This document shows, in pieces, positions 6,121-17,495 of a stretch of 64,000 nt of DNA. The position numbers were made by a program, and so were the translations under genes. The notes under the pieces were generated by a model, which did no database searches, had not been told where the DNA came from, and saw only the letters and a program-made list of their open reading frames with translations. Positions within the stretch are counted from its first letter, which is position 1. Each line of letters opens with the position of its first letter. Source of the DNA: Dehalococcoidia bacterium (GTDB lineage: Bacteria; Chloroflexota; Dehalococcoidia; Lucifugimonadales; UBA3495); NCBI GenBank assembly GCA_965220625.1, contig CBDCQN010000003.1:1402764-1466763 (forward strand), in the 5' to 3' direction.

Positions 6121-6992
6121 CTAAAACCTTCTCCGGCTTCTCCGGAACATCAGCATACCGGCCACTAACAGGCCGGCAACTGCCACTCCAGCCCCAAAGC
6201 CCGCGACAAACCAGACCACATTGGACATTATGGGGCTGGGCTCCTCGTCTTCAATCACTGGAATGGCCGGAGGCGGCGTTGGCATCGGCGTGGCCGTCGG
6301 CTCCGGCGTGGGTGTGGCGGTCGGTTCAGGTGTGGGCGTGAGTGTCGGCTCCGGGGTTGAAGTGGCCGTCGGCACGGGCGTGGGCGTAGGTTGCGGTGTG
6401 GGCGTGAGTGTCGGCTCCGGCGTGGGTGTGGGCGTGGCCGTCGGTTCAGGTGTGGGCGTCGGCTCGGGCGTGGCCGTTGGTTGCGGTGTTGGTGTGAGCG
6501 TCGGCTCCGGCGTGGGTGTGGGCGTGGCCGTCGGTCTCGGAGTGCGGGTGGGCCCTGGCGTCGGACGGGGGCCGACCCTGATTGTATCGGCGCCGCCTAC
6601 CATCCGTTCAACTTGGTTATGTCGGTCAGCGTCCCGAAAAATGTGTACGTGCCCTCTTGGCTGGGGGCGACCATGGTGTAGGTGACGCCGGTCTCACCGA
6701 GGAGTATGACGGTCAAAGTCTGGCCGCTGAAGGTTGCCGCGCTTCCCAGGTCCGAACCGACATACCGGAACCCAGGGGGCAGGGTCTCCACGATCTGCCC
6801 CAGACCGCCGAAGTTGGTGGCCCGGACTGTCACCCGCACCTGTCCCTCCGGCTCGACCCAGGGTGAAGAAAGGCTGCGCTGGGCGTCGGGCGTCTGCGCC
6901 TGTGCCGGTCCCGACAGCACCAGCGCCGCCAGGCCGAGCGCCACCCCCGATGCCGTCAGGACCGCCAGCACCTTCCTCAACACCCCTTTCAT
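6121..6992 (-). pseudogene. Secreted, C-terminally membrane-anchored Pro/Thr-stalk protein, split by a 1-nt frameshift near 6608
   Basis: ORF 6597-6992 has a signal peptide (AQA) and a beta-rich domain; ORF 6121-6603 has a PT stalk, a TM helix and an RRSRRRF tail. Adding one G (ttg [g]aa cgg atg gta) joins them as [18 protein letters not shown]. Confidence 0.75.
6280..6560 (-). repeat. Degenerate tandem repeats encoding a PTPTPEPT stalk
   Basis: [10 protein letters not shown] recurs three times among PTATP/PEPT units. Confidence 0.85.
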
Positions 6993-7045: not shown

Positions 7046-10000
7046 TCAGCCGATGAAGTATAGCCTGACTATCTTCAAGACGTCTTCCAGACTGATGAGT
7101 CCCGTGAAATAGTCCCTCACGGCTTCCAGGGCCTCGTCGAGATCTATGGACAGGCTGTTGTCCGCGTCGTATTCGAGGGCCCGGCTGTCGGCGAAGGCCG
7201 CAGGGGCCACGTTGACAGAGACGTACACCCGCTGCGGCGGGTTCCTGAACCCGGTCCCGGCGATGACCACCTGGGCCCGGTGACTGCCCGGTGACAGGTC
7301 CGACGCGTCCACGCTCACCATCAGGGACAGCCGGTTGCCGGGACCGGCGGAAAAGCCGGACACGGGAGCGACGGACAGCCAGGGGGCGCTTCCGGACACG
7401 TTGAAGTTCATGCGCCGTGATACGGGGCTCCACAGTTGCAGCGGCCGCGCCGGGGGATTCTCCCCTCCGGCGTAAGCGGTGAAGCGGAGGATTCGCGGCG
7501 ACACGCCGGCCAGCGGCAGGAGCACGGGCGCCGGGGACACGCCCCCACCGCCCCCACCGCCCCCACCGCCGCCGCCGCCGGTGGACGGCGGGGTAGCCGT
7601 CGTTTCCTCCCTTTCCTCCGGAGGAGGAGGCAGGGGCGGCGGAGGAGGGGGCGGCGGAACGTAGCCCGGCCTGCCAGTGCGTGACGGCGACCATTCGCCG
7701 TATTGACCGTTAACGTTGTTCATCGCCCTGACCTGCACCTCGTAGGTGGTGTCCTTTGTCAGGTTCTCGACGGTGTGGGAGCGGTCCGTTCCGCTGACAG
7801 TCTCGGGAATCCAACTTGCACTGCTATTCGACACCCGGAATTGCAGGTCGTAGCCGGTAATGGATGTGCCCGAGGGAGTGCGGGGGGTCGACCAAGTGAC
7901 GCGAAGGCTGGTGTCGGATGCCGAGGTTACTCCGGGCCTGCCGGGGGCGCAGGGCGGCTCGCCGGCGGTGCGGCACTCGTCCGTAACGGTGACGGTCACG
8001 GTTATTGTGGCCGTTTGACTGTCGGGAGCCGTGGCCGTGATCAACACCTCCGCTTCAGGTCCTGGTTGGGTCTCGTAGTCCAGTCCGGTGTCGCTGGTAA
8101 GCAGTTGGCCATTTGTGTCGTTGATGGTGAAGTAAGTGGTGTCGCCTCCTGTCAGGGAGTAGGTCAGATTGACGTTGTCGGGGTGGCTGGCCGTGAACCG
8201 AGAGCCGACATTCTGATTCTCGGCGGTGTTCTCCCGAATGCTGCGGGTGTCAGTGTCCGTGGGGAAGTAAGGTCGCAGCTCTACGGCTCTGGAAAACTCG
8301 TAAGTCTCCGTCTTGCCGGATCCCTCCCGGTCGCGGTAAATCGCGACCACTCGCAGTTCCTTGCCGTTGTCGTCCCTGGTGGGAGTGTAGGAACGGGACG
8401 TGGCCCCAGGAATAGGGCCCCAAGCGGTTCCTCCATCTGAAGAACTCTCCCACTTCCATTCGATCGATCCCACACCGCCGTCGGGGTCCTCCACCGTGGC
8501 CGTCAGCCTTTGGCCAACACGCGGCTCGCTGACCGGGACCTCCACCACGCCAGGCTCGTCCACGTTGCTGACGCGGACGGTGACGCTCAGGCGGTCGACG
8601 CTGGTGCCGGGACTCTGCTCCCGGGCCTCGATGGTGACCCGGTAGCTGTTCTTCTCCTCGTAGTCGGGAACGGCATTGAAGGTCAGAGTGCCGCCGGACA
8701 GGGTGAATGCGTCACTGTCGGTGCCGGTGAGGCCCCAGTCGATTCCAGTGTCGTCCGGGTCGGTGGCCGTGTAGGTCGCGACGTTGGTGCCACCGTTCTC
8801 GGCGACCTCCGGGTTGTTGGGACCGGAGATCTCCGGCGTCTCGTCCACGTCCTCGACGGTGATGGTTACGGGGACGGTGTCTGACCGATTGGAAGGGTCG
8901 CTGGCTGTGACTGTTACTGTGTGGGTGGCTTGGTCCTCGTGGTCGAGCGCGGCCTTGGTGCGTATCTGGCCGGTGGAGTCTACGATCTCGAAGTAGTCCG
9001 ATGCAGGGATGCTGTAGGTCAGCCGGTCGTTGGTTGGGTCGGTGGCCCGGACGGGCAGGCCGACACTTCGCCCCGCCGGTTGGTTCTCCCGGATGGTGCG
9101 GTTGTAGTCGCGGCCCATTGGAAACTCCGGCGGCTGGTTCTGCGGAGGCACTTCTTGAACCTGGTTGGAGCTGACGGCAACGGCGGATTTGCCGTCTCCG
9201 TGGCCGTCGTCATAGGAGGCGACGACGCGAAGGAATCTGCCTACGTCATCGGCCAGGGGCGTGTAGGTTGCGGATACGGCATTGGTGATGGCCGTACCCG
9301 AGCTGCCGCGGCTGGAGGCGCGGTACCATTGCCACGTTGTACCGGTGGGGATGTCATCGTCCTCCAGCGTGGCCGTCAGCGGCGTTTCGGCCTGGGGTTG
9401 CACCGTAGACAGGGTCACCGTTCCGGTTTCTTCAAGGTTCTGGATGTTGACCGTTACGGTCCTGGTCGCGCTATTGGTAATGTCTGTGGTGCCGGTGCCG
9501 ACCTTGGCCCTGACGGTGAAGCTGTAGCTGCTCCGTTCCTCGTAGTCCGGCGATTCCTCTAAGGTAACGACGCCGTTGCTGGCGAGGTTAAAGTCGTCGC
9601 TGTCCGTTCCGGTCAGCGACAAGGTGACCGTGGCGCCCTCGGGGTCGGTGGCGGCGTAGCGGGCGACCTGCCGGTTGGTAGCGGAGTTCTCCGGGAAGTC
9701 GTCAACGGGGTCCGGGCCGGTGATTTCCGGCGGTTCATCCACGTTCTGGACGATCACGTCGACGTGCAGCTCGCCCTGCTTGTTGTTGGAATCTGCCGTT
9801 TGCACGGTGATATCGTAGACGTTGTTGCGGCCCGAGTCCGCCGGGCGCTCGTAGTCCGGCGCATCCTTGAAGGTGAGCACGCCCGAGTTGCTGATATCGA
9901 AATCTCCTCTGTCAGCACCGGCCAAAGTCCACGTAACCTGATCGTCATTGCTGTTGCCCGGGGTCTCAGGGTCGTCGGCAGCGTAGTCTGCCACATCGCC

Positions 10001-13000
10001 GGTGCCGTTCTCGTCGTAGTCGTCGATGGTGTTAAGACCGGTAACGACGGGCGGCTCGTCGACGTTGGTGACAGTCACGGTCACGTCTAACATCCCGGCC
10101 ATCGTTCCGAGCGGAGATGCCGTGCCGTCCCCGAGATTTCCATCGTCCGTGGCGACCACCAGAAAGTCGTACACGTTGTCCCCGCCGGAGTCGGTCGGGA
10201 CCTCATGGTCTGGCTCCCCGTCGAAATACAGGTTGCCGGAGGAGTCGATACGGAATTCATCCTTGTCCGTTCCGTCCAGCGACCAGGTGACCGCCCTCTT
10301 CTCGGGGTCAGTGGCGGTGTAGCGGTCGAGCACCCTTGCGGTGGCCGTGTTCTCCTGGAATGAAAGGGTGTCGGCTCCAGAGATGGATGGAGGCTCATTC
10401 AGGTCCTTGACGGTTACGGTGACATCGAAGCGTCCCGTCTTGGCCGGAGTTCCATCGTCGGTGGCGCGCACCTGCACGTTGTAGACGTTGTTGCGGCCCG
10501 AATCTGCGGGCGACTCGAAGTTTGGGGTGTCCTTGAATGTAAGTTCGCCGCCAGTGCTGATGTCGAAATCGCCGCTGTCCGTTTCGGACAGGCTCCAGGT
10601 GAAGGTGGTGGTCGCTCCCTCCGGGTCACTGGCAGCATAGGAAGCAACAGGATGATCGGCATTCTCATCATAGTTGATGGTGGTGTCTCCGGTGATCTCC
10701 GGCGGCTCGTTAACGTCTGTTACGGTCACGGTGACTTCGAGTTCGGCCCTCTCAGTGGGGGTTCCGTCGTCGGTGGCGACGATGGTGATGCTGTGGCTGG
10801 ACTTCGTCTCGTGGTCGGGCTGGCTGGCGAACCGCAGGTTGCCGCTGGTGTCTATGGTGAAATCGCCTCCGTCGGTTCCCTCCACCGACCAGGTGATGGA
10901 ACCCTTCTCCGGGTCGGTGGCTCTGTAGCGATGCAGCACCCTGGTTGTGGCGGTGGCCTCCGGGTAGGACAGCGCGTCATCACCGTCGGTGCGGGTGATG
11001 ACGGGCGGCTCGTTTACGTTGGTGACCAGCACTTTGACCTCGATCTTGTCTTCCAGGCCGTCGGTGGTCCGGTCGCTGACCTCAACATCCATGGTGTATT
11101 CCTGGGTACCGGTCTCGTAGTCGAAGGGGTGGGCGACAGGCGGGTCGGTAGCGGATACCGAGATCTGGCCGTTGCTGTCGATCTCGAAGAGCCCGCTGGG
11201 GTCGTCCAGCGTGTAGGTCAGGATGTCTCCGGTGTCCAGGTCGGTGGCCGTTATCGGGCTGCCGACGGTGGCACCCTGGGCGGCGGTTTCCGGGAGGTCG
11301 CGCGTGGTCTCCAAGCCGTCCTCGAAGTACGGCGCGCGGTTATCGTCGGTTACTGTAACTTTTACGGAGGCCCAGGAAACCTCCTGACCGTCGAAGGTAG
11401 TTCGGTGCCGGATGTGCGCCACGTCGTCGAACGTGTCGTCGTCGGCCACACTTGTCACGGTCACCGTCAGGGGCGTATTCCAGTTCCCGCTCGTGCCCAC
11501 GGTGAATGTGTGATTCGACGGGGCAACGGTTACTGAATCCACATCGCTGCTGAGGATGCGGATTGCCAGGTTTGAGGCGGGTTCAGTTGCGGGAACGATG
11601 GTGTAGGTTGCCGTGCTCCCTTCACTGTCAATGGTAATCTCCTCGACGTCGACGCTGTTCTGCTGGTAGGTCAACGCGGGCAGGCCCGTGTCTTGGATGA
11701 GGGCGCGCACCCGGCCCAGCACGTAGTCCTTTCCGTTTATCCTCGTCTCGTGGGAGACGATCTCGATCTCGATCTCGATTCCGGCATCGGAGTCCGACAC
11801 CGCCGTCAGGGTGACGGTCTGGGCATCGTCCCACTCGTACTTGTCGGAGGCGGATGCCTCATCCGTCTTGGTGAACGTTATCGAACTCGGTGAGACAGTC
11901 AGGGCACCCGTATCCGAGCTGTCCAGGTCGATGGTAACGTCGCCCTCCGGCTCGCTGGCCATCTGTACGGTGTAAGTTGCGGTGTCGCCCTCGTTGAATC
12001 GATTGGCCTCGTCGGCGCCGAAGAGCCCGTCGAAGAAGTGCCCAACGGAAGCGTCGGTGGGAAAGTCGGCCGTGGCGTGGGTGCTGGCCAGCGTCAGCCC
12101 CGGCGCGTCGTCGTCGGTTACCTCTACGGGAATGACCGCTGTCATGTACTCGTTCCCGCCGATGGAGATCAGGTGGCGTATCGTCGTCGCCTCGTGGTCC
12201 GCATCGTCGTCGGAAACTCCGGTCACCGTTATAGTTTCGGAGAAATCTGAATTGGTGAAGGTTGTCTCCGTCGGGGAGACGGTAGCCACGTCCGTATCGT
12301 CGGATGACAGTTTGACCGTCATGTCGGAGGAGGGAGCGGAAGACAAGCCAACCGTGTACGTGGCTGCTGTGGCCGCATCCTCCGTCGCCGCAACCGAATC
12401 AACGGAAATATCCAGCTCGGGCAAATCCACTCGGGCCACGCACGGGGCGAACTCTGAGGTGGACCGCACATCCGTGTCGGTGGATGTGGCGGTTACGTGC
12501 GTGGCCGTGGTTCCGCTGAATTCGCGAAATTGCCCCAGGAGGGTACTGGCGGTGAGTGTTGCCGAGCCCGTGACGTCAAGCGAACCCGAGGTGAAGCCCA
12601 GCCCGGTCTGGCCCTCGCCGCTGGTGGACGAGTCACAGGCGTAGAAATCGATGACGTAAGTGCGGTTCGACGTAACATCCAGGGTGAAACGCACCGAGAC
12701 GTCGTCGCCACGGGTGGCGAAGGTGATGTTGGACGGGTAGTTTTGCAGGTGGTTGGGGCCGCTGTCGCGGTCGCGCTCGTCGTTGGCGGTGACGCCGTCG
12801 TCGCCAAGGTCGATGCCGTGGCCGTCGTTGTCGTGGATGGAGTTCTCCCAGATCGTGTTGCCCAGCGAGTTGTTGCCCGTGATGGTCACGCCGTCGAGGC
12901 TGTTGTGCGCGATGACGTTGCCCTCCACCGTGTTGTCGTCGGGGCCTCCGCTGATGTGTACGCCGGAACCGCCGTTGCCCAGGTCAGCGCCGCTGGCGTT

Positions 13001-15784
13001 GGCGCCGATCCAGTTTTCGGCGATCAGGTTGTCCTGGACGTGCGTGCCGGACAGTCTTACGCCGTGGGAGCCATTGCCGCCGATGACGTTCTTGGCGACC
13101 AGGTTGTTCTTGGGGTCTCCGTCGAAGAAGATGCCGGAGCCGGTGTTGGCCAGGGCGGCCGTCCCGGCGTCGTTGGTGCCTATGCGGTTGTTCTCGATTA
13201 CCGCGTCCTCGGTCACTTTGTTGTCTAGGTGGACGCCGTGGCTGTCGTTGCCGGAGATTACGTTGTCCTGCATCACGACCTGCCGCGTCGAGATGTAGGC
13301 GCCCACCCCGGAATTGCCGACGTCGGCGGTTCCCGCAGCGTTGGCGCCGACCTTGTTGCCGTAGAAATGTAGCCTGCCGCCAATGTTGGTGGCGACGCCG
13401 TGGCCGTCGTTGCCGGATATGACGTTGTCCCGCAGCAGCACATCTTCTGAGCGACTGATGTGCACGCCACTCGAACCGTTGCCCTCGTCGGTTGAGCCGG
13501 CGGCGTCGGTTCCGACCATGTTGCCGACGAGGACATTGTTGCGGCTCGAGCTGATTGCGATGCCGTACCGGCTGAAGCTGTTGACCGCCAGCCCCCGCAC
13601 GTAGTTGCCGTTGCCCTGGAGCATCAGACCGTCCACGCTGCTTCCCGCGTTGGTGCCGTCGATCTCGATGAGCACGGCGCCGGCGCTGGCCCCAGGCTGG
13701 CTGTAGCCGTCGATGAACACCGGCTTGGTGATGGCTGGCAGGGCCGATGCCGGGCTGATGGTCTGCACGCCGCTGCCGGAGATGTCGAACTTGATGGCCG
13801 CGCCGGTCCCCGCGTTGGTCTGCTGGATGGCGGCCCGCAGGGTGCAGTTGGTGGAGCCGTCCACCGTCCCGTCGTCGCAGACGCCGTCGGTGGTGTCGTC
13901 GTCGGCGCCGTCGCCGTTGGAGTTGACCGTGTGGGTGTCCGCGTACGAGGTCAGCGAGTACAACTCCAGCGCATCGTTGGATGAGTCACCGGCCAGGGAC
14001 GTGATGGCGGCCCAGGCGTCGGCGCGGCCATAGCCGAAGGTGTTGTCGTGGCCGGTCTCGCCCAAGTCGATGGCGGTGTCCTTCAGCTTCTGCGTGACGG
14101 CGTCGGCGACCGCCTTTTTGCCCATGGCCGGGTCGGCCTTGCGCTGGGCCTCCATTACCAGCGCGGCGATGCCCGCCACGTGGGGAGCAGCGGCGGAAGT
14201 GCCGAGAAACAAACTGAACGGAGAAACGGGATTCACTATGCCGAATCCCCCTGCGCCGGTGATCATCACGCCGTCGATGCCCATAAGGTCGGGCTTGTTC
14301 CGGGTCTCCCGGTGTGGGAAGTAGATTTCAATAGGACCCCGGTCACTGAAGAACTGCGGCTCGTCGTTGCCGGGGTCGGCGGCATATATGGCGCCGATAG
14401 ACAGCAACCCCGGCACGGCTGGATGTCCGATAATGCCGCCCTCTGTGACTCCGTGCTCCAGGACTTCGCCGTGAGTAACGAACAGCTTCAGTTGCCGCGG
14501 GTTGCCGGAGAATTTCCGAATGTATACGTCCGCTGTCGAGTAATCGAGCGAAGAGGTGTAAATGCTCTCGTAGGGGTTGTCGTCGCCATCCTGCTCCCGG
14601 TCGCTTTTGTCGCACACATCGTTCTGTAGGTTGAACTTGACTGGCTTCAGACCTGGCGGACAGACAAAGAGATCGTAGTCATTACCGGAGGACCCGAACT
14701 GGTCGTTCCACTGGAGATGAAGCTTGAAGCCGAGCGCGACTCTCAGCGCGATGTCCGTCTCGCTGGAATCGTCGAAGTCGTGGTAGTCGTCGCCACCGTC
14801 TATGAACTGCCCCGTGTAGTGACTTACGGCGTTGTTGCCGGCGGCGGAGGTGAACACAACGCCGCCGGTCACGGCGTCCTCCGCCGCCAGCGCAATCAAT
14901 CCGTCCTCGAAATAAGGTTCAGTGTAGTGGCCAATGTCGTCGACGATGATGTCGGCGCCCTCGCCGTCGAAGGCCTCGGTGGCCAGCCAGAGAATGGACT
15001 CCACCATGTCCAGGGAGGTCTCCGGCCCAGAGAAGGCCAGCTGGGCGCTGGGGGCCAGGTCGTGGATGATTTCCAGCAGCGCCGTCCCCTCGTCACCCGA
15101 CCCGCGATTGTCCGGGTCAATCTCGATGCTGTCAGGGAGGTCGTTGCTGCTCTGTGCGGTGCCTCGGGCATCAACGCCGTCGGAGATGGCCCCGACCTTG
15201 ACGCCCCTGCCGCTGAGGCCGCTGAAGGCGCGCACCAGGTCGGCGCGGTGGATGCCGTCGCCCTCGGTGACAATTCGCCCCGCCTTGGTCTGGCCGTAGT
15301 CGGGGGCCGTAATCTCCTCAACCGCATCCAGCGCCGCGATATCGTCGAGGGCCGTGGTGGGCACCCAGGCCTGGACCACGTTAGCATCGGAGTTGGCGAT
15401 CTCGATGTCGGCGCCCAGGTCCCGGAGTTCCTGCAGCGTGTCGTTGTCCGTGTTCTCCAGGTGAATGTACACCTGCACGTTGCCCGAGGAGTCGAACCGT
15501 ACCGGGTCGTCCGTCGCGCCCGATTTTGACGGCGCGGCGGCCGCCGCAAGCGCGTCCTTGGTGGTCAGGCCGCCGGAAAGAGAGCGGGTGAACTCACCGC
15601 TATCCCGCTGCGATGCCCCCTGTGCCGCTGGGGACTCGAGTTGCTCGATGAATTGCTGGAGCAGCGGGCTGACGACTGAGTCCTGCTTGCCCGCGCCGTA
15701 CGGCGGGTCGTCGGCGAACGCCGGCGTGCCGAAAAGCACCAGACAGGCCAAGGCTACCAGGGCCCCGAGTGTTGCAATTCTCAT
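7046..15784 (-). CDS. Giant (~2,912 aa) secreted S8/S53-like protease-adhesin: prodomain, peptidase, CSLREA, beta-helix, 3 Calx-beta-like, ~9 cadherin-like, 2 other Ig-like, FN3, poly-Pro/Gly, BACON-like, C-terminal dockerin/EF-hand-like tag
   Basis: Signal peptide MRIATLGALVALACLVLFGTPAFA (ATG 15784; an alternative ATG is at 15823). Motifs ISDGVD, GDEGTALLEIIHDLAP, SAAGN, GTSAAAPHVAG; CTLRAAI; repeated NVNEPP/DEN...YTATDP; YDADNSLSIDLDEA. Confidence 0.88.
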   Translation of the reverse strand: MRIATLGALVALACLVLFGTPAFADDPPYGAGKQDSVVSPLLQQFIEQLESPAAQGASQRDSGEFTRSLSGGLTTKDALAAAAAPSKSGATDDPVRFDSSGNVQVYIHLENTDNDTLQELRDLGADIEIANSDANVVQAWVPTTALDDIAALDAVEEITAPDYGQTKAGRIVTEGDGIHRADLVRAFSGLSGRGVKVGAISDGVDARGTAQSSNDLPDSIEIDPDNRGSGDEGTALLEIIHDLAPSAQLAFSGPETSLDMVESILWLATEAFDGEGADIIVDDIGHYTEPYFEDGLIALAAEDAVTGGVVFTSAAGNNAVSHYTGQFIDGGDDYHDFDDSSETDIALRVALGFKLHLQWNDQFGSSGNDYDLFVCPPGLKPVKFNLQNDVCDKSDREQDGDDNPYESIYTSSLDYSTADVYIRKFSGNPRQLKLFVTHGEVLEHGVTEGGIIGHPAVPGLLSIGAIYAADPGNDEPQFFSDRGPIEIYFPHRETRNKPDLMGIDGVMITGAGGFGIVNPVSPFSLFLGTSAAAPHVAGIAALVMEAQRKADPAMGKKAVADAVTQKLKDTAIDLGETGHDNTFGYGRADAWAAITSLAGDSSNDALELYSLTSYADTHTVNSNGDGADDDTTDGVCDDGTVDGSTNCTLRAAIQQTNAGTGAAIKFDISGSGVQTISPASALPAITKPVFIDGYSQPGASAGAVLIEIDGTNAGSSVDGLMLQGNGNYVRGLAVNSFSRYGIAISSSRNNVLVGNMVGTDAAGSTDEGNGSSGVHISRSEDVLLRDNVISGNDGHGVATNIGGRLHFYGNKVGANAAGTADVGNSGVGAYISTRQVVMQDNVISGNDSHGVHLDNKVTEDAVIENNRIGTNDAGTAALANTGSGIFFDGDPKNNLVAKNVIGGNGSHGVRLSGTHVQDNLIAENWIGANASGADLGNGGSGVHISGGPDDNTVEGNVIAHNSLDGVTITGNNSLGNTIWENSIHDNDGHGIDLGDDGVTANDERDRDSGPNHLQNYPSNITFATRGDDVSVRFTLDVTSNRTYVIDFYACDSSTSGEGQTGLGFTSGSLDVTGSATLTASTLLGQFREFSGTTATHVTATSTDTDVRSTSEFAPCVARVDLPELDISVDSVAATEDAATAATYTVGLSSAPSSDMTVKLSSDDTDVATVSPTETTFTNSDFSETITVTGVSDDDADHEATTIRHLISIGGNEYMTAVIPVEVTDDDAPGLTLASTHATADFPTDASVGHFFDGLFGADEANRFNEGDTATYTVQMASEPEGDVTIDLDSSDTGALTVSPSSITFTKTDEASASDKYEWDDAQTVTLTAVSDSDAGIEIEIEIVSHETRINGKDYVLGRVRALIQDTGLPALTYQQNSVDVEEITIDSEGSTATYTIVPATEPASNLAIRILSSDVDSVTVAPSNHTFTVGTSGNWNTPLTVTVTSVADDDTFDDVAHIRHRTTFDGQEVSWASVKVTVTDDNRAPYFEDGLETTRDLPETAAQGATVGSPITATDLDTGDILTYTLDDPSGLFEIDSNGQISVSATDPPVAHPFDYETGTQEYTMDVEVSDRTTDGLEDKIEVKVLVTNVNEPPVITRTDGDDALSYPEATATTRVLHRYRATDPEKGSITWSVEGTDGGDFTIDTSGNLRFASQPDHETKSSHSITIVATDDGTPTERAELEVTVTVTDVNEPPEITGDTTINYDENADHPVASYAASDPEGATTTFTWSLSETDSGDFDISTGGELTFKDTPNFESPADSGRNNVYNVQVRATDDGTPAKTGRFDVTVTVKDLNEPPSISGADTLSFQENTATARVLDRYTATDPEKRAVTWSLDGTDKDEFRIDSSGNLYFDGEPDHEVPTDSGGDNVYDFLVVATDDGNLGDGTASPLGTMAGMLDVTVTVTNVDEPPVVTGLNTIDDYDENGTGDVADYAADDPETPGNSNDDQVTWTLAGADRGDFDISNSGVLTFKDAPDYERPADSGRNNVYDITVQTADSNNKQGELHVDVIVQNVDEPPEITGPDPVDDFPENSATNRQVARYAATDPEGATVTLSLTGTDSDDFNLASNGVVTLEESPDYEERSSYSFTVRAKVGTGTTDITNSATRTVTVNIQNLEETGTVTLSTVQPQAETPLTATLEDDDIPTGTTWQWYRASSRGSSGTAITNAVSATYTPLADDVGRFLRVVASYDDGHGDGKSAVAVSSNQVQEVPPQNQPPEFPMGRDYNRTIRENQPAGRSVGLPVRATDPTNDRLTYSIPASDYFEIVDSTGQIRTKAALDHEDQATHTVTVTASDPSNRSDTVPVTITVEDVDETPEISGPNNPEVAENGGTNVATYTATDPDDTGIDWGLTGTDSDAFTLSGGTLTFNAVPDYEEKNSYRVTIEAREQSPGTSVDRLSVTVRVSNVDEPGVVEVPVSEPRVGQRLTATVEDPDGGVGSIEWKWESSSDGGTAWGPIPGATSRSYTPTRDDNGKELRVVAIYRDREGSGKTETYEFSRAVELRPYFPTDTDTRSIRENTAENQNVGSRFTASHPDNVNLTYSLTGGDTTYFTINDTNGQLLTSDTGLDYETQPGPEAEVLITATAPDSQTATITVTVTVTDECRTAGEPPCAPGRPGVTSASDTSLRVTWSTPRTPSGTSITGYDLQFRVSNSSASWIPETVSGTDRSHTVENLTKDTTYEVQVRAMNNVNGQYGEWSPSRTGRPGYVPPPPPPPPLPPPPEEREETTATPPSTGGGGGGGGGGGGGVSPAPVLLPLAGVSPRILRFTAYAGGENPPARPLQLWSPVSRRMNFNVSGSAPWLSVAPVSGFSAGPGNRLSLMVSVDASDLSPGSHRAQVVIAGTGFRNPPQRVYVSVNVAPAAFADSRALEYDADNSLSIDLDEALEAVRDYFTGLISLEDVLKIVRLYFIG

Positions 15785-15902
15785 TTCAGGACTTGAAAAC
15801 GGACTCCGAAAATGCGGGACCATTATTGCAACCGCCAGGGTGCGGTGTGAACCGCATTGAGGCGGAGCAAAGGGTCCATTTGCCTGGAACAGCCAGTGGC
15901 GA

Positions 15903-17495
15903 TCAAGGGTCCAGCACCCGTCCAACGAACAGCACAGTGTCTGTCGCGTGGTGGCGGATGATGAGCAGGAACGGCCTGTCCACCACCACCTCGATGGGAT
16001 CGGGTTCAACGCCAACAGCCCTCGTTACGCCGACAATTACCGCAGTGGCTGCGGCGGCCTCGGTGCCTGCCTCGTCGACGGAGACGAAGGCCTGGTGCAG
16101 CACGTCTGAGATGAGCAGGCAGATGTCGCCCCTGGCCCGGCAGAGTTGCCCGTCCATTCCAGAGAAGTTGGCGGCCTGATCGTCGAAGGCGTCGGGCATT
16201 CCCATGGCCTTCAGCGTATCAGACAGGCTGAAGCCGGATTCCATCTCGAACTTGGGCATGGTCAGGCGGACGAGTTCGGATTCAAGGCTTTCCACAATGT
16301 CCCGAACTGACTGGCCGCTCAGGGAACCCTCGAACTCTTCGAACTTGCCGGATTCCGGCAGTAGGATGGTCATGGCTACATCCCCGCCTTTGTAGGGCAG
16401 TTCAACCGCCTGGAACCCGTCGCCGATGGCATAGCGCAGGTTTTCCTGCTGCCACATCATGGCCACATCACGTTGACTGCCGTCGAGCAGGTGGAAGGGA
16501 CGGTCCTTGGTGACCCTTTCGTCGAAAGCGTGGAGCCATGCGGCGTTGAAATAAATGGCGTTGGCCAGCACCAGCCTGGTGAGGGGCGTGAGCGTTCCCT
16601 GGGGTATCAAGTTCCTGATCCTTTCCTCCGTTTCGTCGGCGACCCAGCCGTTGATGCGGACTCTGGCGTCCTCCGGGTCGCGCCGGAAGTCCGCCGCCCT
16701 TACATCCTCGCCGTAGTTCACAGCCAGGGAGTCCAGGAACTCCGGCAGAAAGCTGTAGTCCCGCTGTCCCCAAAGGGAATTGGCCACGTTCAGACGAAAC
16801 GCATCGTCTCCCCCCTTCGGAAGGGAGGCCAGCAAGAGATCAAGGGCGTTGAAGGCCGGATGCAACCTGTTCTGGGGCAGCTTGAAGCCGAGGGAATCAG
16901 CCATCTGCCGTTCGGTCTCTCCCCTGGCCCCGGCGTACGCCATGGCCATGCCGAGGGAAATGCTGTAAGGCGAAAAGAACAGGTTGCCTTCGGAGCCGGA
17001 AAGTTTCCGGTAGAGTTCCAGGCCAAAGGTGATATTGCCGTCCACCAACGTGTCCAGTTCTTCTGCGGAAGCGTTGAGAGAGGTCACTCGCGGCTTCCGG
17101 GAGCCTACCGTCTCCGCAGGCGGCTGGGTCGGCTTGGCGGAAGTGGCCGAAGCGATTGTGGGCGGCAATCGCGGCGCGAGTGCGGTTGCGGCCGCGCCCT
17201 GTCCCGGGGTGCCCGGGATTACCGTAGGAGTTGGGATGGGGTTACGGTCGGCCCTTTGTTGCCCGTTACCTTCCCTTGGGTTATCGGTCTTGGCCGGCGT
17301 GCTGGTTGCCGGAGAAAGAGGGGTGGCAGGGATGGCGGAAGTCGGCGTCTCCTCTCTTCTTTCGAATGCCGAAACAGGCGTCGATGAGCTGGCCGCAGTA
17401 CCGCCTGGTGATGGCGACGCGGGTTGCGACTCGCACGCGGCGAGTCCGCCCAACAGTAACAGGACCAACGCGCCAGGCAACAGCAATTTGATCAA
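15903..17495 (-). CDS. Lipoprotein serpin (serine protease inhibitor) with Pro/Thr/Ala-rich N-terminal linker
   Basis: FSPYSIS, LVLANAIYFNAAW, LTMPKF, VDEAGTEAAAAT hinge, DRPFLLIIRH, LFVGRV; lipobox LAAC. Start uncertain (TTG 17495 or 17579). Confidence 0.92.
   Translation of the reverse strand: MIKLLLPGALVLLLLGGLAACESQPASPSPGGTAASSSTPVSAFERREETPTSAIPATPLSPATSTPAKTDNPREGNGQQRADRNPIPTPTVIPGTPGQGAAATALAPRLPPTIASATSAKPTQPPAETVGSRKPRVTSLNASAEELDTLVDGNITFGLELYRKLSGSEGNLFFSPYSISLGMAMAYAGARGETERQMADSLGFKLPQNRLHPAFNALDLLLASLPKGGDDAFRLNVANSLWGQRDYSFLPEFLDSLAVNYGEDVRAADFRRDPEDARVRINGWVADETEERIRNLIPQGTLTPLTRLVLANAIYFNAAWLHAFDERVTKDRPFHLLDGSQRDVAMMWQQENLRYAIGDGFQAVELPYKGGDVAMTILLPESGKFEEFEGSLSGQSVRDIVESLESELVRLTMPKFEMESGFSLSDTLKAMGMPDAFDDQAANFSGMDGQLCRARGDICLLISDVLHQAFVSVDEAGTEAAAATAVIVGVTRAVGVEPDPIEVVVDRPFLLIIRHHATDTVLFVGRVLDP

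What the first reader, a model, noticed from the sequence alone, without database searches (positions are those of the whole stretch)
7046..7180. C-terminal duplicated Ca-binding-like tag and a possible partner domain in the next gene
Seen: the giant protein has no TM or sortase motif. It ends in YDADNSLSIDLDEALEAVRDYFTGLISLEDVLKIVRLYFIG, an EF-hand-like DxDxSxxIDxxE loop followed by two amphipathic helices, which is the dockerin layout. The adjacent gene encodes a ~100-aa beta-rich domain (VRVTVRA...GQIVETLPPGF.YVGS...YTMVAP...YTFFG) on a PT stalk with a TM anchor, the layout of anchoring scaffoldins. Inference: a divergent dockerin/cohesin-like pair, or a lineage-specific sorting tag.
Basis: inference. 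Interest (0 to 1): 0.7.

Follow-up and report, generated by a model that had tools for sequence, protein, structure and literature searches.

The report
EF-hand tail paired with stalked anchor
The giant secreted protease-adhesin ends in a 40-residue calcium-loop module that, across many Dehalococcoidia genomes, is almost always followed by a gene for a membrane-anchored stalk protein with a small beta-sandwich head. The pair looks like a cell-surface docking system that works like dockerin-cohesin but is built from unrelated parts.

Summary
The 2,912-aa secreted protein (7046-15784, minus strand) has one hydrophobic segment, its signal peptide. It ends in YDADNSLSIDLDEALEAVRDYFTGLISLEDVLKIVRLYFIG: one EF-hand loop plus two helices.

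The tail is a member of a large module family with no curated model. This genome has 33 copies, and 2,743 cluster representatives match worldwide. The module sits on cadherin, LRR, protease and Ig-like proteins, usually at the C-terminus but also internally or in tandem. It is therefore a domain, not a cleaved sorting signal.

It is not a Pfam dockerin. It has one canonical Ca loop with Glu at position 12, and no copy matches Dockerin_1.

The next gene encodes a signal peptide, a 103-aa beta-sandwich related to DUF11/CLIPPER, a Pro/Thr stalk and a C-terminal membrane anchor. The beta-sandwich is not a Cohesin.

The pairing is real. In 30 relatives, 21 of 28 tails are followed within 136-321 nt by this domain's gene. 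The two parts co-occur genome by genome (18 both, 1 one only, 12 neither). They are also fused in single proteins.

My best reading, at about 0.5, is Ca-dependent docking of cargo onto an anchored stalk. Binding itself is untested.

In this strain the anchor gene carries a real 1-nt frameshift.

The parts
7046..15784 (-). Cargo gene: giant secreted protein. Order of parts: signal peptide, S8-like protease, beta-helix, cadherin x7, fn3, poly-Pro/poly-Gly linker, BACON-like Ig domain, EF-hand tail. It has no membrane anchor of its own.
   Evidence: Translation; Pfam hits to Cadherin 2e-61, Beta_helix, fn3 and BACON_2; the only hydrophobic segment is the signal peptide; start codon checked.
7049..7171 (-). 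The 41-aa C-terminal module YDADNSLSIDLDEALEAVRDYFTGLISLEDVLKIVRLYFIG (stop codon at 7046-7048).
   Evidence: Family HMM E=2.6e-19. The module is conserved in relative L001. AF2 pLDDT 86.7.
7133..7168 (-). EF-hand-type 12-residue loop DADNSLSIDLDE. Ligand positions 1, 3, 5, 9 and 12 are kept; position 6 is Leu instead of Gly.
   Evidence: Sequence. D1 and E12 are invariant and I8 nearly invariant in 38 family members. A profile of the family finds EF-hand proteins first in the PDB.
7106..7141 (-). Exiting helix LDEALEAVRDYF.
   Evidence: AF2 helix at residues 22-33 of the 52-aa construct; coordinates.
7052..7090 (-). Second helix LEDVLKIVRLYFI. It follows a degenerate half-loop (TGLIS) and is an internal repeat of the first unit.
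   Evidence: AF2 helix at residues 39-51; 7 of 16 residues identical between the two units.
6897..6992 (-). Anchor gene: signal peptide MKGVLRKVLAVLTASGVALGLAALVLSGPAQA. The ATG lies 53 nt after the cargo stop codon.
6571..6878 (-). Partner domain (PD): a 103-aa all-beta domain related to DUF11/CLIPPER. It is interrupted by a 1-nt deletion after + strand position 6616 (minus strand ATAAAC became ATAAC).
   Evidence: AF2 on the orthologue's domain gives pLDDT 96.1 and about 10 strands. PF01345 matches 14 of 27 family members. Frameshift shown.
6259..6570 (-). Pro/Thr-rich stalk of about 104 aa.
6124..6219 (-). C-terminal TM helix [25 protein letters not shown] (6145-6219) and basic tail RRSRRRF (6124-6144).
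   Evidence: The PGF-CTERM model scores below its cut-off (19.3-20.7 against 24.5 bits). The genome has no exosortase or archaeosortase gene.

Best explanation
The tail is one copy of a widespread 40-residue single-EF-hand module that has no curated model. I propose it is a calcium-dependent docking handle.

Proposed mechanism: the giant protease-adhesin is exported by Sec and has no anchor of its own. Its C-terminal module then binds the CLIPPER/DUF11-like beta-sandwich at the tip of the Pro/Thr stalk of the membrane-anchored protein encoded 53 nt downstream. That holds the cargo on the surface of a cell that has no sortase-type attachment signal on this protein. In effect it is a dockerin-cohesin-like display system made from non-homologous parts.

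Shown here: the module family, its EF-type loop, the domain identities, the anchor architecture, and the strict gene linkage, co-occurrence and fusion.

Inferred only: calcium binding, and physical binding of the tail to the beta domain.

In this particular strain the anchor gene is frameshifted, so this pair is probably decaying.
For: 1. Modularity. The same module ends, or sits inside, many unrelated secreted proteins: GLUG, LRR, cadherin, S8 protease and Big_12 proteins in this genome. Of 96 representatives elsewhere, 36 carry Big_12, 19 LRR, 17 cadherin and 16 fn3.

2. Gene order. In 30 relatives, 21 of 28 tails have the PD gene starting 136-321 nt downstream on the same strand, and 28 of 33 PD loci have a tail within 2 kb. 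Three of the five exceptions turned out to have divergent tails. In a class-wide sample, 10 of 11 PD loci are preceded by a tail.

3. Co-occurrence by genome. In the relatives: 18 genomes have both, 1 has PD only, 0 have the tail only, 12 have neither (Fisher 9e-8, not corrected for phylogeny). In the class sample all 9 other PD genomes carry the tail.

4. Different cargos, same arrangement. The arrangement holds for cadherin giants, for this protease giant, for a Peripla_BP_2 solute-binding protein in G145, and for unrelated cargos on low-GC contigs L050 and L051. The tail is the common denominator.

5. Fusions. 19 of 150 tail-bearing representatives also contain PD, some as minimal signal-peptide-PD-tail proteins. 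Within this genome there is an S8-fn3-PD-Big_12-tail protein.

6. Anchors have nothing but PD as a folded part: signal peptide, 1-5 PDs, a Pro/Thr or collagen-like stalk, a TM helix and an Arg tail.

7. An internal parallel. This genome's one true dockerin protein is likewise followed by a membrane-anchored cohesin gene.

8. D1, I8 and E12 of the loop are conserved, and a profile of the family finds EF-hand proteins first (calerythrin, 3.5e-7).
Against:
- Much of the linkage could be inherited synteny of one ancestral operon. The Fisher test is not corrected for phylogeny.
- In this genome there are 33 tails but only 5 PD loci, and only one intact anchored PD protein. Most tails have no matching anchor nearby.
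- DUF11/CLIPPER domains are generally stalk domains of fibrillar adhesins, not receptors (PMC12617251).
- Some genomes have more PDs than tails (G022: 9 PDs, 2-3 tails).
- The window's loop has Leu at position 6, where Gly is usual.
- Foldseek on the tail model gave nothing significant (best E=4).
- Both copies of this anchor type in this genome are frameshifted.
Confidence: 0.5

Rival explanations
1. The tail is a docking or assembly handle, but its partner is not the PD domain. Single EF-hands tend to pair, so tails might pair with each other, linking tail-bearing proteins into complexes. Alternatively they might bind an S-layer or a host-matrix component. The PD anchor would then be a co-expressed but separate stalk protein.
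For: - Tails occur in tandem (34 of 150 representatives have two or more copies).
- Adaptor-like signal-peptide-PD-tail proteins follow tail-ending cargos (L050, L051), which a tail-tail pairing would also explain.
- In this genome most of the 33 tails have no PD gene nearby.
- Earlier scan notes on other genomes reached 'docking, partner unknown'.
Against: - The Dehalococcoidia anchors have no tail of their own, yet they are the genes most tightly linked to tail-ending cargos.
- Genomes without PD lack the tail almost completely.
Confidence: 0.2
2. The tail is only a calcium-stabilised structural cap on extracellular multidomain proteins. The linkage with the PD gene then reflects an inherited operon of two surface proteins that act together without the tail mediating contact.
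For: - CLIPPER/DUF11 domains are typical stalk domains (PMC12617251).
- Most linked cargos are cadherin-rich giants that may be orthologous.
- Calcium-binding motifs are common in extracellular adhesins.
Against: - The arrangement recurs with unrelated cargos: a solute-binding protein, this protease giant and a 554-aa protein with no Pfam match.
- A 40-aa cap would not be expected to sit strictly at the extreme C-terminus directly before the partner gene, nor to be fused directly to PD in minimal 190-aa proteins.
- The two-helix part is kept even where the loop is lost (G008).
Confidence: 0.15
3. The pair is a true, highly diverged dockerin-cohesin pair, homologous to the cellulosomal modules.
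For: - The loop-plus-helix layout has no long entering helix.
- A type II dockerin (2y3n_D) ranks second in Foldseek for the tail, though at E=4.
- Two cohesins (2xdh at rank 6, 2w1n at rank 13) appear among the PD fold matches.
Against: - Dockerin_1 and Cohesin HMMs find this genome's true dockerin and cohesins, but none of the 33 tails or 8 PDs.
- hhalign probabilities are 7% and 0.15%.
- There is only one complete Ca loop.
- Glu at loop position 12, as in canonical EF-hands.
- PD matches PF01345 and is about 103 aa, against about 140 aa for cohesins.
- The top fold matches are YcnI and AgI/II domains, with TM-scores of only 0.56-0.70.
Confidence: 0.05
4. The tail is a C-terminal sorting or secretion signal recognised by a dedicated protease or transporter and removed or modified.
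For: It is mostly at the extreme C-terminus (97 of 150 representatives) and sits on many secreted proteins.
Against: - It also occurs internally, followed by Pro/Glu linkers and about 800 more residues, and in tandem.
- It has no hydrophobic segment or basic tail.
- The cargos have Sec signal peptides.
- The genome has no exosortase or archaeosortase.
Confidence: 0.05

Closest known systems
Dockerin-cohesin pairs (Pfam PF00404 and PF00963), including non-cellulosomal ones
   Same: - A small Ca-loop-plus-helix module sits at the C-terminus of diverse secreted cargos.
- The partner beta-sandwich is presented singly or in tandem on a stalked, membrane-anchored protein.
- The cargo gene is followed by the anchor gene.
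- Adaptor proteins carry both modules.
- This genome's own true dockerin-cohesin pair has the same gene order.
   Different: - No detectable homology.
- One complete Ca loop instead of two.
- Glu rather than the Asp I recall as typical at dockerin loop position 12 (my own knowledge).
- The two helices are joined directly, without the linker helix.
- The partner is a roughly 103-aa DUF11/CLIPPER-type Ig-like domain, not a roughly 140-aa cohesin jelly roll.
- Binding is unproven.
Canonical EF-hand (Pfam clan CL0220; EF-hand_1 PF00036, EF-hand_6 PF13405)
   Same: A 12-residue DxDxDGxIxxxE loop with bidentate-type Glu at position 12 and Ile at position 8, followed by an exiting helix. The best sequence matches in the PDB are calerythrin, lanmodulin and calmodulin loops.
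   Different: - A single loop, extracellular, usually preceded by the last strand of an Ig-like or cadherin domain rather than an entering helix.
- Followed by a second helix with only a half-loop.
- Individual copies score below the Pfam cut-offs.
CLIPPER (formerly DUF11, PF01345), the CnaA-like stalk domain of fibrillar adhesins (Costa et al. 2025, PMC12617251; PDB 9ifr)
   Same: PD family members match PF01345 (42 bits for the four-repeat protein; 14 of 27 single domains). Relatives carry precomputed PF01345 hits. 9ifr is among the top fold matches (rank 9, TMq 0.64). Tandem repeats occur in surface proteins.
   Different: - There is no invariant Lys, so no isopeptide signature: an invariant Arg stands in the first strand.
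- Here the domain is the only folded head at the tip of an unstructured stalk, not a stalk element below an adhesive tip.
- The window's own copy does not reach any Pfam hit.
Haloarchaeal and methanogen S-layer glycoprotein C-termini (PGF-CTERM with archaeosortase A)
   Same: A Pro/Thr-rich stalk followed by a C-terminal TM helix and an Arg-rich tail. There are weak sub-threshold PGF-CTERM and S-layer C-terminus matches.
   Different: The matches are below the curated cut-offs, and the genome has no exosortase or archaeosortase gene. It is best read as a plain C-terminal membrane anchor.

Membership tests
Dockerin_1 (PF00404) | Match to the Pfam model at or above its gathering score | tested here: not met
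   None of 15 tails matches even at E<=10. A whole-genome scan finds one dockerin (C3:1160840-1160983, 29.5 bits) and none of the 33 tails.
Dockerin_1 (PF00404) | Two tandem Ca-binding loop-helix (F-hand) repeats | tested here: not met
   There is one complete 12-residue loop. The second unit keeps only G-x-[IL]-[ST]-K-x-[EQ] plus the helix. hhalign to the genome's own dockerin aligns 18 columns of the loop only, at 7% probability.
Dockerin_1 (PF00404) | Ca-dependent binding to a cohesin | not testable with these tools
   No complex prediction or binding assay was available.
Cohesin (PF00963) | Match to the Pfam model | tested here: not met
   The genome scan finds two cohesins at C3:1160447-1161704 and none of the 8 PDs. 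hhalign of the PD profile against that cohesin gives 0.15% probability.
Cohesin (PF00963) | Nine-stranded jelly-roll beta-sandwich of about 140 residues | tested here: inconclusive
   The AF2 model (pLDDT 96) has about 10 strands in 103 residues. Foldseek lists cohesins 2xdh (rank 6, E 3.3e-4, TMq 0.56) and 2w1n (rank 13) among YcnI, AgI/II and CLIPPER domains of equal or better score.
EF-hand (CL0220) | 12-residue loop with ligands at positions 1, 3, 5, 7, 9 and 12, Gly at 6, a hydrophobic residue at 8 and Glu at 12 | tested here: met
   The family consensus is D-x-D-x-[DN]-G-x-I-[SD]-[KR]-x-E, with D1 and E12 invariant. The window copy keeps D1, D3, S5, I8, D9 and E12 but has Leu at position 6.
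EF-hand (CL0220) | Match to a Pfam EF-hand model at its gathering score | tested here: not met
   The window tail scores 14.7 bits against a cut-off of 25. 13 of 15 paralogues give sub-threshold hits. The family profile finds EF-hand proteins in the PDB at 3.5e-7.
EF-hand (CL0220) | Calcium binding | not testable with these tools
   Inferred from the loop residues only.
CLIPPER / DUF11 (PF01345) | Match to the Pfam model | tested here: met
   Met at family level. The four-repeat paralogue scores 42.1 bits against a cut-off of 24.6. 14 of 27 single domains match, best 4.6e-6. Homologues carry precomputed PF01345 hits. The window's own copy gives no hit by itself.
CLIPPER / DUF11 (PF01345) | Lys-Asn/Asp isopeptide triad. 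It is present in many, but not all, members according to PMC12617251. | tested here: not met
   There is no invariant or nearly invariant Lys in 27 domains. The invariant residues are R1, G23, E30, P33, G35, Y66, G75, G81, G95 and V101.
PGF-CTERM / archaeosortase sorting signal (TIGR04126) | Model match above the cut-off and a cognate sortase gene in the genome | tested here: not met
   19.3-20.7 bits against a cut-off of 24.5. No PF09721 match in the genome.
LPXTG sortase substrate (for the giant protein) | LPXTG-type motif followed by a hydrophobic segment and a basic tail at the C-terminus | tested here: not met
   There is no C-terminal hydrophobic segment. The only LPxxG-like string lies 150 residues from the end, with no TM segment after it.

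The most novel reading that the evidence does not exclude
Dehalococcoidia, and at least two other uncultured lineages with lower GC content, use a surface-display system that has not been described. In it, a one-calcium 'half-dockerin' EF-hand module on cargos docks onto an isopeptide-less CLIPPER/DUF11 domain. The cargos include adhesin-like cadherin and LRR proteins, proteases, and even an ABC-transporter binding protein. The CLIPPER/DUF11 domain is displayed singly or in tandem on stalked membrane anchors or on tail-bearing adaptors. This would be a convergent, non-homologous counterpart of cohesin-dockerin.
Probability: 0.45. Interest if true: 0.8.

Novelty: new variant of a known kind. 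Interest (0 to 1): 0.66.

Why it matters
If the tail docks onto the CLIPPER-like head, this would be a second, independently evolved modular cargo-anchor system besides cohesin-dockerin.

- It would explain how abundant marine and sponge-associated Dehalococcoidia keep giant adhesins and proteases, and in one genome a transporter binding protein, on the cell surface.
- It would give DUF11/CLIPPER domains a receptor role in addition to their stalk role.
- It would provide a very small (40-aa) Ca-switchable affinity pair for protein engineering.
- It supplies a concrete partner candidate for a module that earlier notes of this scan recorded as 'partner unknown'. That makes the question directly testable with two small recombinant domains.

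Tried and rejected
- Foldseek of the tail model against the PDB gave nothing significant (best E=4). The domain is too small for the method.
- A profile search of PD against PDB sequences gave only one marginal hit (2kyw, E=0.032).
- NCBIfam gave no family for either the tail or the PD. C-terminal sorting-domain models (PGF-, GPS-, Synerg-, MYXO-CTERM, LPXTG) were all below their cut-offs on eight anchors.
- An exosortase/archaeosortase search of the genome was negative, so I dropped the idea that the anchor's C-terminus is a PGF-CTERM-type signal.
- Literature searches turned up no description of the module or the pair. The terms combined dockerin or dockerin-like with Dehalococcoidia, sponge, SAR202 or Chloroflexi, and DUF11 with EF-hand. 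Only the CLIPPER paper was relevant.
- The listing of cluster members gave no names or taxonomy for the distant representatives.
- I considered that the frameshift in the anchor gene was an assembly error. I rejected this because an exact-match contig in run X1 carries it, beside an intact allele.
- I considered a mirror-tree or covariation test of tail against PD. I did not run it, because both lie in one locus and share history, so it could not discriminate.
- Both structure-prediction jobs went on the separate domains. A natural PD-tail fusion such as P0122 could therefore not be folded.
Full report
**1. What is at the coordinates**

The minus-strand ORF 7046..16015 translates to a protein ending ...FADSRALEYDADNSLSIDLDEALEAVRDYFTGLISLEDVLKIVRLYFIG*. 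The likely start is the ATG at 15784, in front of the signal peptide MRIATLGALVALACLVLFGTPAFA.

Pfam finds seven cadherin stretches, a beta-helix region, fn3 and a weak BACON-like Ig domain just before the tail. A hydropathy scan finds no hydrophobic segment except the signal peptide and no sortase-type C-terminus.

The tail holds a 12-residue EF-type loop (DADNSLSIDLDE) and two helices. Their 16-residue units share 7 of 16 residues. AlphaFold2 with a 38-sequence alignment gives loop, helix (LDEALEAVRDYF), turn, helix (LEDVLKIVRLYFI) at mean pLDDT 86.7.

**2. The tail is a domain family, not a one-off**

- An HMM from this tail and its paralogues finds 33 places in this 4.6-Mb genome. The consensus is YDxDGDGxISKNEAIAAVRDYFSGxLTKEQTIAVIRLYF.
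- The carriers are large Sec-exported proteins of several unrelated kinds: GLUG-repeat, LRR, cadherin, S8/proprotein-convertase, Big_12, PPC and CARDB-like.
- About ten copies are internal, followed by Pro/Glu linkers and roughly 800 more residues.
- A profile search of 1.84 billion representatives finds 2,743 proteins at E<=1e-3 and 629 at E<=1e-10. Of the best 150, 97 carry the module at the extreme C-terminus, 53 do not, and 34 have two or more copies.
- Of 96 representatives scanned, 36 carry Big_12, 19 LRR, 17 cadherin, 16 fn3 and 12 PPC.

The module is therefore a folded domain on diverse cargos, not a cleaved sorting signal.

All 36 loci found in the species-genome collection with the closest patterns are Dehalococcoidia MAGs. 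The organism is therefore a Dehalococcoidia (Chloroflexota).

**3. What the tail is related to**

- No copy matches Pfam Dockerin_1, even at E<=10. EF-hand_6, EF-hand_1, EF-hand_5 and EF-hand_7 give sub-threshold hits in up to 13 of 15 copies.
- The family profile finds EF-hand proteins first among PDB sequences (calerythrin 3.5e-7, then lanmodulin and calmodulin). No dockerin appears in the top 60.
- The Dockerin_1 model does work on this genome. It finds one true dockerin at C3:1160840-1160983 and none of the 33 tails.
- hhalign of the tail profile against that dockerin aligns only 18 loop columns, at 7% probability.
- D1 and E12 of the loop are invariant in the family. Glu at position 12 is the canonical EF-hand state. 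From my own knowledge, dockerin loops typically end in Asp.
- Foldseek on the small model was uninformative (best E=4).

My conclusion is that this is a single canonical EF-type loop with an exiting helix and a duplicated helix that keeps only a half-loop. It is dockerin-like in layout, but it is not a member of that family.

**4. The next gene**

The gene starts 53 nt after the cargo stop codon. ORF 6597..6992 encodes a signal peptide and most of a beta-rich domain. ORF 6121..6603, in another frame, encodes the last strand ([10 protein letters not shown]), a 104-aa Pro/Thr stalk, a TM helix and RRSRRRF.

An intact 287-aa orthologue that is 97% identical (P0002) reads straight through (...[26 protein letters not shown]...). 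This places a 1-nt deletion in ATAAAC.

Public runs confirm that this is a real allele:
- In the best-holding run, X1, an exact-match contig carries the deletion (depth 38).
- A second contig in X1 (depth 27, three SNPs) has the extra base behind + strand position 6616.
- Runs X2-X4 carry only the intact form.

A second, decayed copy of the whole pair lies at C3:1695921-1696531. It consists of a 366-aa cargo remnant with a near-identical tail, plus an anchor that is frameshifted at a different place.

**5. What the partner domain (PD) is**

- AlphaFold2 on a 27-sequence alignment gives an all-beta domain of about ten strands (pLDDT 96.1, pTM 0.86).
- Foldseek against the PDB gives only fold-level matches at E about 1e-4 and TM-scores of 0.56-0.70. 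They are YcnI, AgI/II C-terminal domains, the Archaeoglobus non-cellulosomal cohesin 2xdh (rank 6), the CLIPPER domain 9ifr (rank 9) and the C. perfringens cohesin 2w1n (rank 13).
- By sequence, the family matches PF01345/DUF11. The four-repeat paralogue scores 42 bits, and 14 of 27 single domains match. It also matches BatD, the 'DUF11-like' family. Homologues carry precomputed PF01345 hits.
- PF01345 has been renamed CLIPPER. It is described as a CnaA-like stalk domain of fibrillar adhesins, often with an isopeptide bond (PMC12617251).
- PD has no invariant Lys, so it lacks that signature.
- The Cohesin model finds this genome's two true cohesins but no PD. hhalign against one of those cohesins gives 0.15% probability.

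PD is therefore a small Ig-like beta-sandwich of the DUF11/CLIPPER kind. It is not a cohesin.

**6. The link between tail and PD**

*Within this genome.* All five PD loci are next to, or fused with, a tail:
- this window;
- its decayed paralogue;
- a 1,282-aa cadherin protein with a tail, followed by an anchor with four PDs, a Pro/Thr region, a collagen-like region and a TM helix;
- two S8-fn3-PD-Big_12-tail proteins, in which PD and tail share one chain.

*In 30 relatives.*
- PD is present in 19 of the 31 genomes searched (G000 and the 30 relatives) and the tail in 18: 18 have both, 1 has PD only, 0 have the tail only and 12 have neither. Fisher's test gives 9e-8, without phylogenetic correction.
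- 21 of 28 tails have PD starting 136-321 nt downstream on the same strand. One more has PD 22 nt upstream in the same ORF.
- 28 of 33 PD loci have a tail within 2 kb.
- I rechecked four of the five exceptions. Two have divergent tails (E about 5e-6 to 9e-6) directly upstream. One (G008) has a loop-less two-helix remnant. One has none.

*In an even sample of 120 genomes of the class.*
- PD occurs in 9 other genomes, and all 9 carry the tail.
- 10 of 11 PD loci are preceded by a tail.

*In the 36 named Dehalococcoidia loci.* 9 have the PD gene just downstream, and 5 have PD in the same ORF upstream. In relative L001 the order serpin, giant, tail, anchor is kept, although the giant is fragmented.

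*The anchors are uniform.* They consist of a signal peptide, one to five PDs, a Pro/Thr or collagen-like stalk, a C-terminal TM helix and an Arg-rich tail.

*The cargos are not uniform.* Most are cadherin giants. The others are this protease giant, a Peripla_BP_2 solute-binding protein in G145 followed by three anchored PD proteins, and unrelated proteins on two low-GC contigs. On those two contigs the next gene is a minimal signal-peptide-PD-tail protein (L050, L051).

*Fusions and chains.* 19 of 150 tail-bearing representatives also contain PD. L054 shows a chain: tail, then PDs, then tails, then PD.

**7. Interpretation**

The tail is the only element shared by all the cargos that precede PD genes. 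PD is the only folded part of the anchors.

Conserved order, co-occurrence and fusion together are the classic genomic signature of physically interacting parts. This genome's true dockerin protein is also followed by a membrane-anchored cohesin gene.

I therefore favour Ca-dependent docking of the tail onto PD, which would retain Sec-exported cargos on a stalked membrane anchor (about 0.5). No binding evidence exists, and I could not run a complex prediction.

Points against this reading:
- the linkage may be inherited synteny;
- the usual role of CLIPPER domains is as stalk elements;
- this genome has 33 tails but only one intact anchored PD protein;
- some genomes have more PDs than tails;
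- the window's loop has Leu at position 6.

The rivals are tail-tail pairing or another partner (0.2), a structural calcium cap (0.15), true dockerin-cohesin homology (0.05) and a sorting signal (0.05).

**8. Comparison and novelty**

The module and the pair are absent from Pfam and NCBIfam as such. I found no paper describing them.

Earlier notes of this scan had seen the same tail in other Dehalococcoidia genomes and called it a probable docking handle with an unknown partner. Those notes are unchecked AI leads. What is added here is a specific partner candidate with quantitative genomic support.

The system works like dockerin-cohesin but fails the membership tests for both families. I class it as a new variant of a known kind of system.

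In this strain the particular pair is decaying, because the anchor is frameshifted.

Noticed in passing
G000:C3:1158373-1161767 (outside the window): The genome's only canonical dockerin-cohesin genes. An 877-aa secreted protein has repeated PPC-like domains, a Cohesin and a C-terminal Dockerin_1. The next gene encodes an N-terminal TM helix, a Pro/Thr linker and a Cohesin. The cargo-then-anchor order is the same as for the EF-hand tail and PD.
   Followed up: partly
window 6606-6622 (frameshift after + strand 6616): The 1-nt deletion in the anchor gene is a real strain allele. In run X1 an exact-match contig carries it (depth 38) beside an intact variant with 3 SNPs (depth 27). Runs X2-X4 have only the intact allele.
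   Followed up: yes
G000:C3:1695921-1696531 (outside the window): A decayed paralogue of the whole pair. It has a 366-aa remnant of the cargo C-terminus (fn3, poly-Pro/poly-Gly linker, BACON-like domain, near-identical tail), followed by an anchor gene frameshifted near its N-terminus.
   Followed up: partly
G000:C1:1-100000 and G000:C3:2390000-2570000: The tail is greatly expanded in this genome: 33 copies against 0-4 in 18 genomes of the same genus. The copies are concentrated in two regions that share near-identical ORFs, for example C1:4476-6825 = C3:2461899-2464248. The offsets between the copies are not constant, which suggests a large duplication rather than a simple contig overlap.
   Followed up: no
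L041 (G145:C9:8000-16000): An ABC-transporter solute-binding protein (Peripla_BP_2, no lipobox) ends in the tail (...FDPWDYDLDDNEVISKSEAVKSVQDYFNGLIAKAQTVQVIMLYFG). Three PD proteins follow it, at least two with a C-terminal TM anchor. This could be a way to tether a binding protein without a lipid anchor.
   Followed up: partly
L042-L045, L055 (anchor C-termini): Anchors from several families share an acidic run plus G-F-P-x-W directly before the C-terminal TM helix, for example EEEDEGGFPVWAII. No curated C-terminal sorting model matches above its cut-off. It could be an unrecognised sorting or processing motif.
   Followed up: partly
L057 (G008:C1:540500-545000): Here the cargo upstream of the PD anchor ends in ...GLAAVMAAINAYFNGTGTLAEAYAALQSYYG. 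The two helices of the tail are kept but the calcium loop is lost. This suggests that the helices, not the loop, carry the conserved function.
   Followed up: no
alignment A2 (PD, 27 domains): PD has an invariant Arg in the first strand, an invariant Glu in the VETLPxGF motif, and Asp or Asn in most members before the last strand. These may lie where CLIPPER domains have their Lys-Asn/Asp-acid isopeptide triad, so a salt bridge might replace the covalent bond. I did not check this in the 3-D model.
   Followed up: no
L054 (ENA contig, 7.7 kb): Tails and PDs alternate along one strand: a cadherin protein with a tail, then a gene with 3-5 PDs (partly fragmented) continuing into cadherins and two tails, then another signal-peptide-PD gene. 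It looks like a chain of adaptors.
   Followed up: no
The three-gene order serpin, giant, anchor is conserved.
   Followed up: partly
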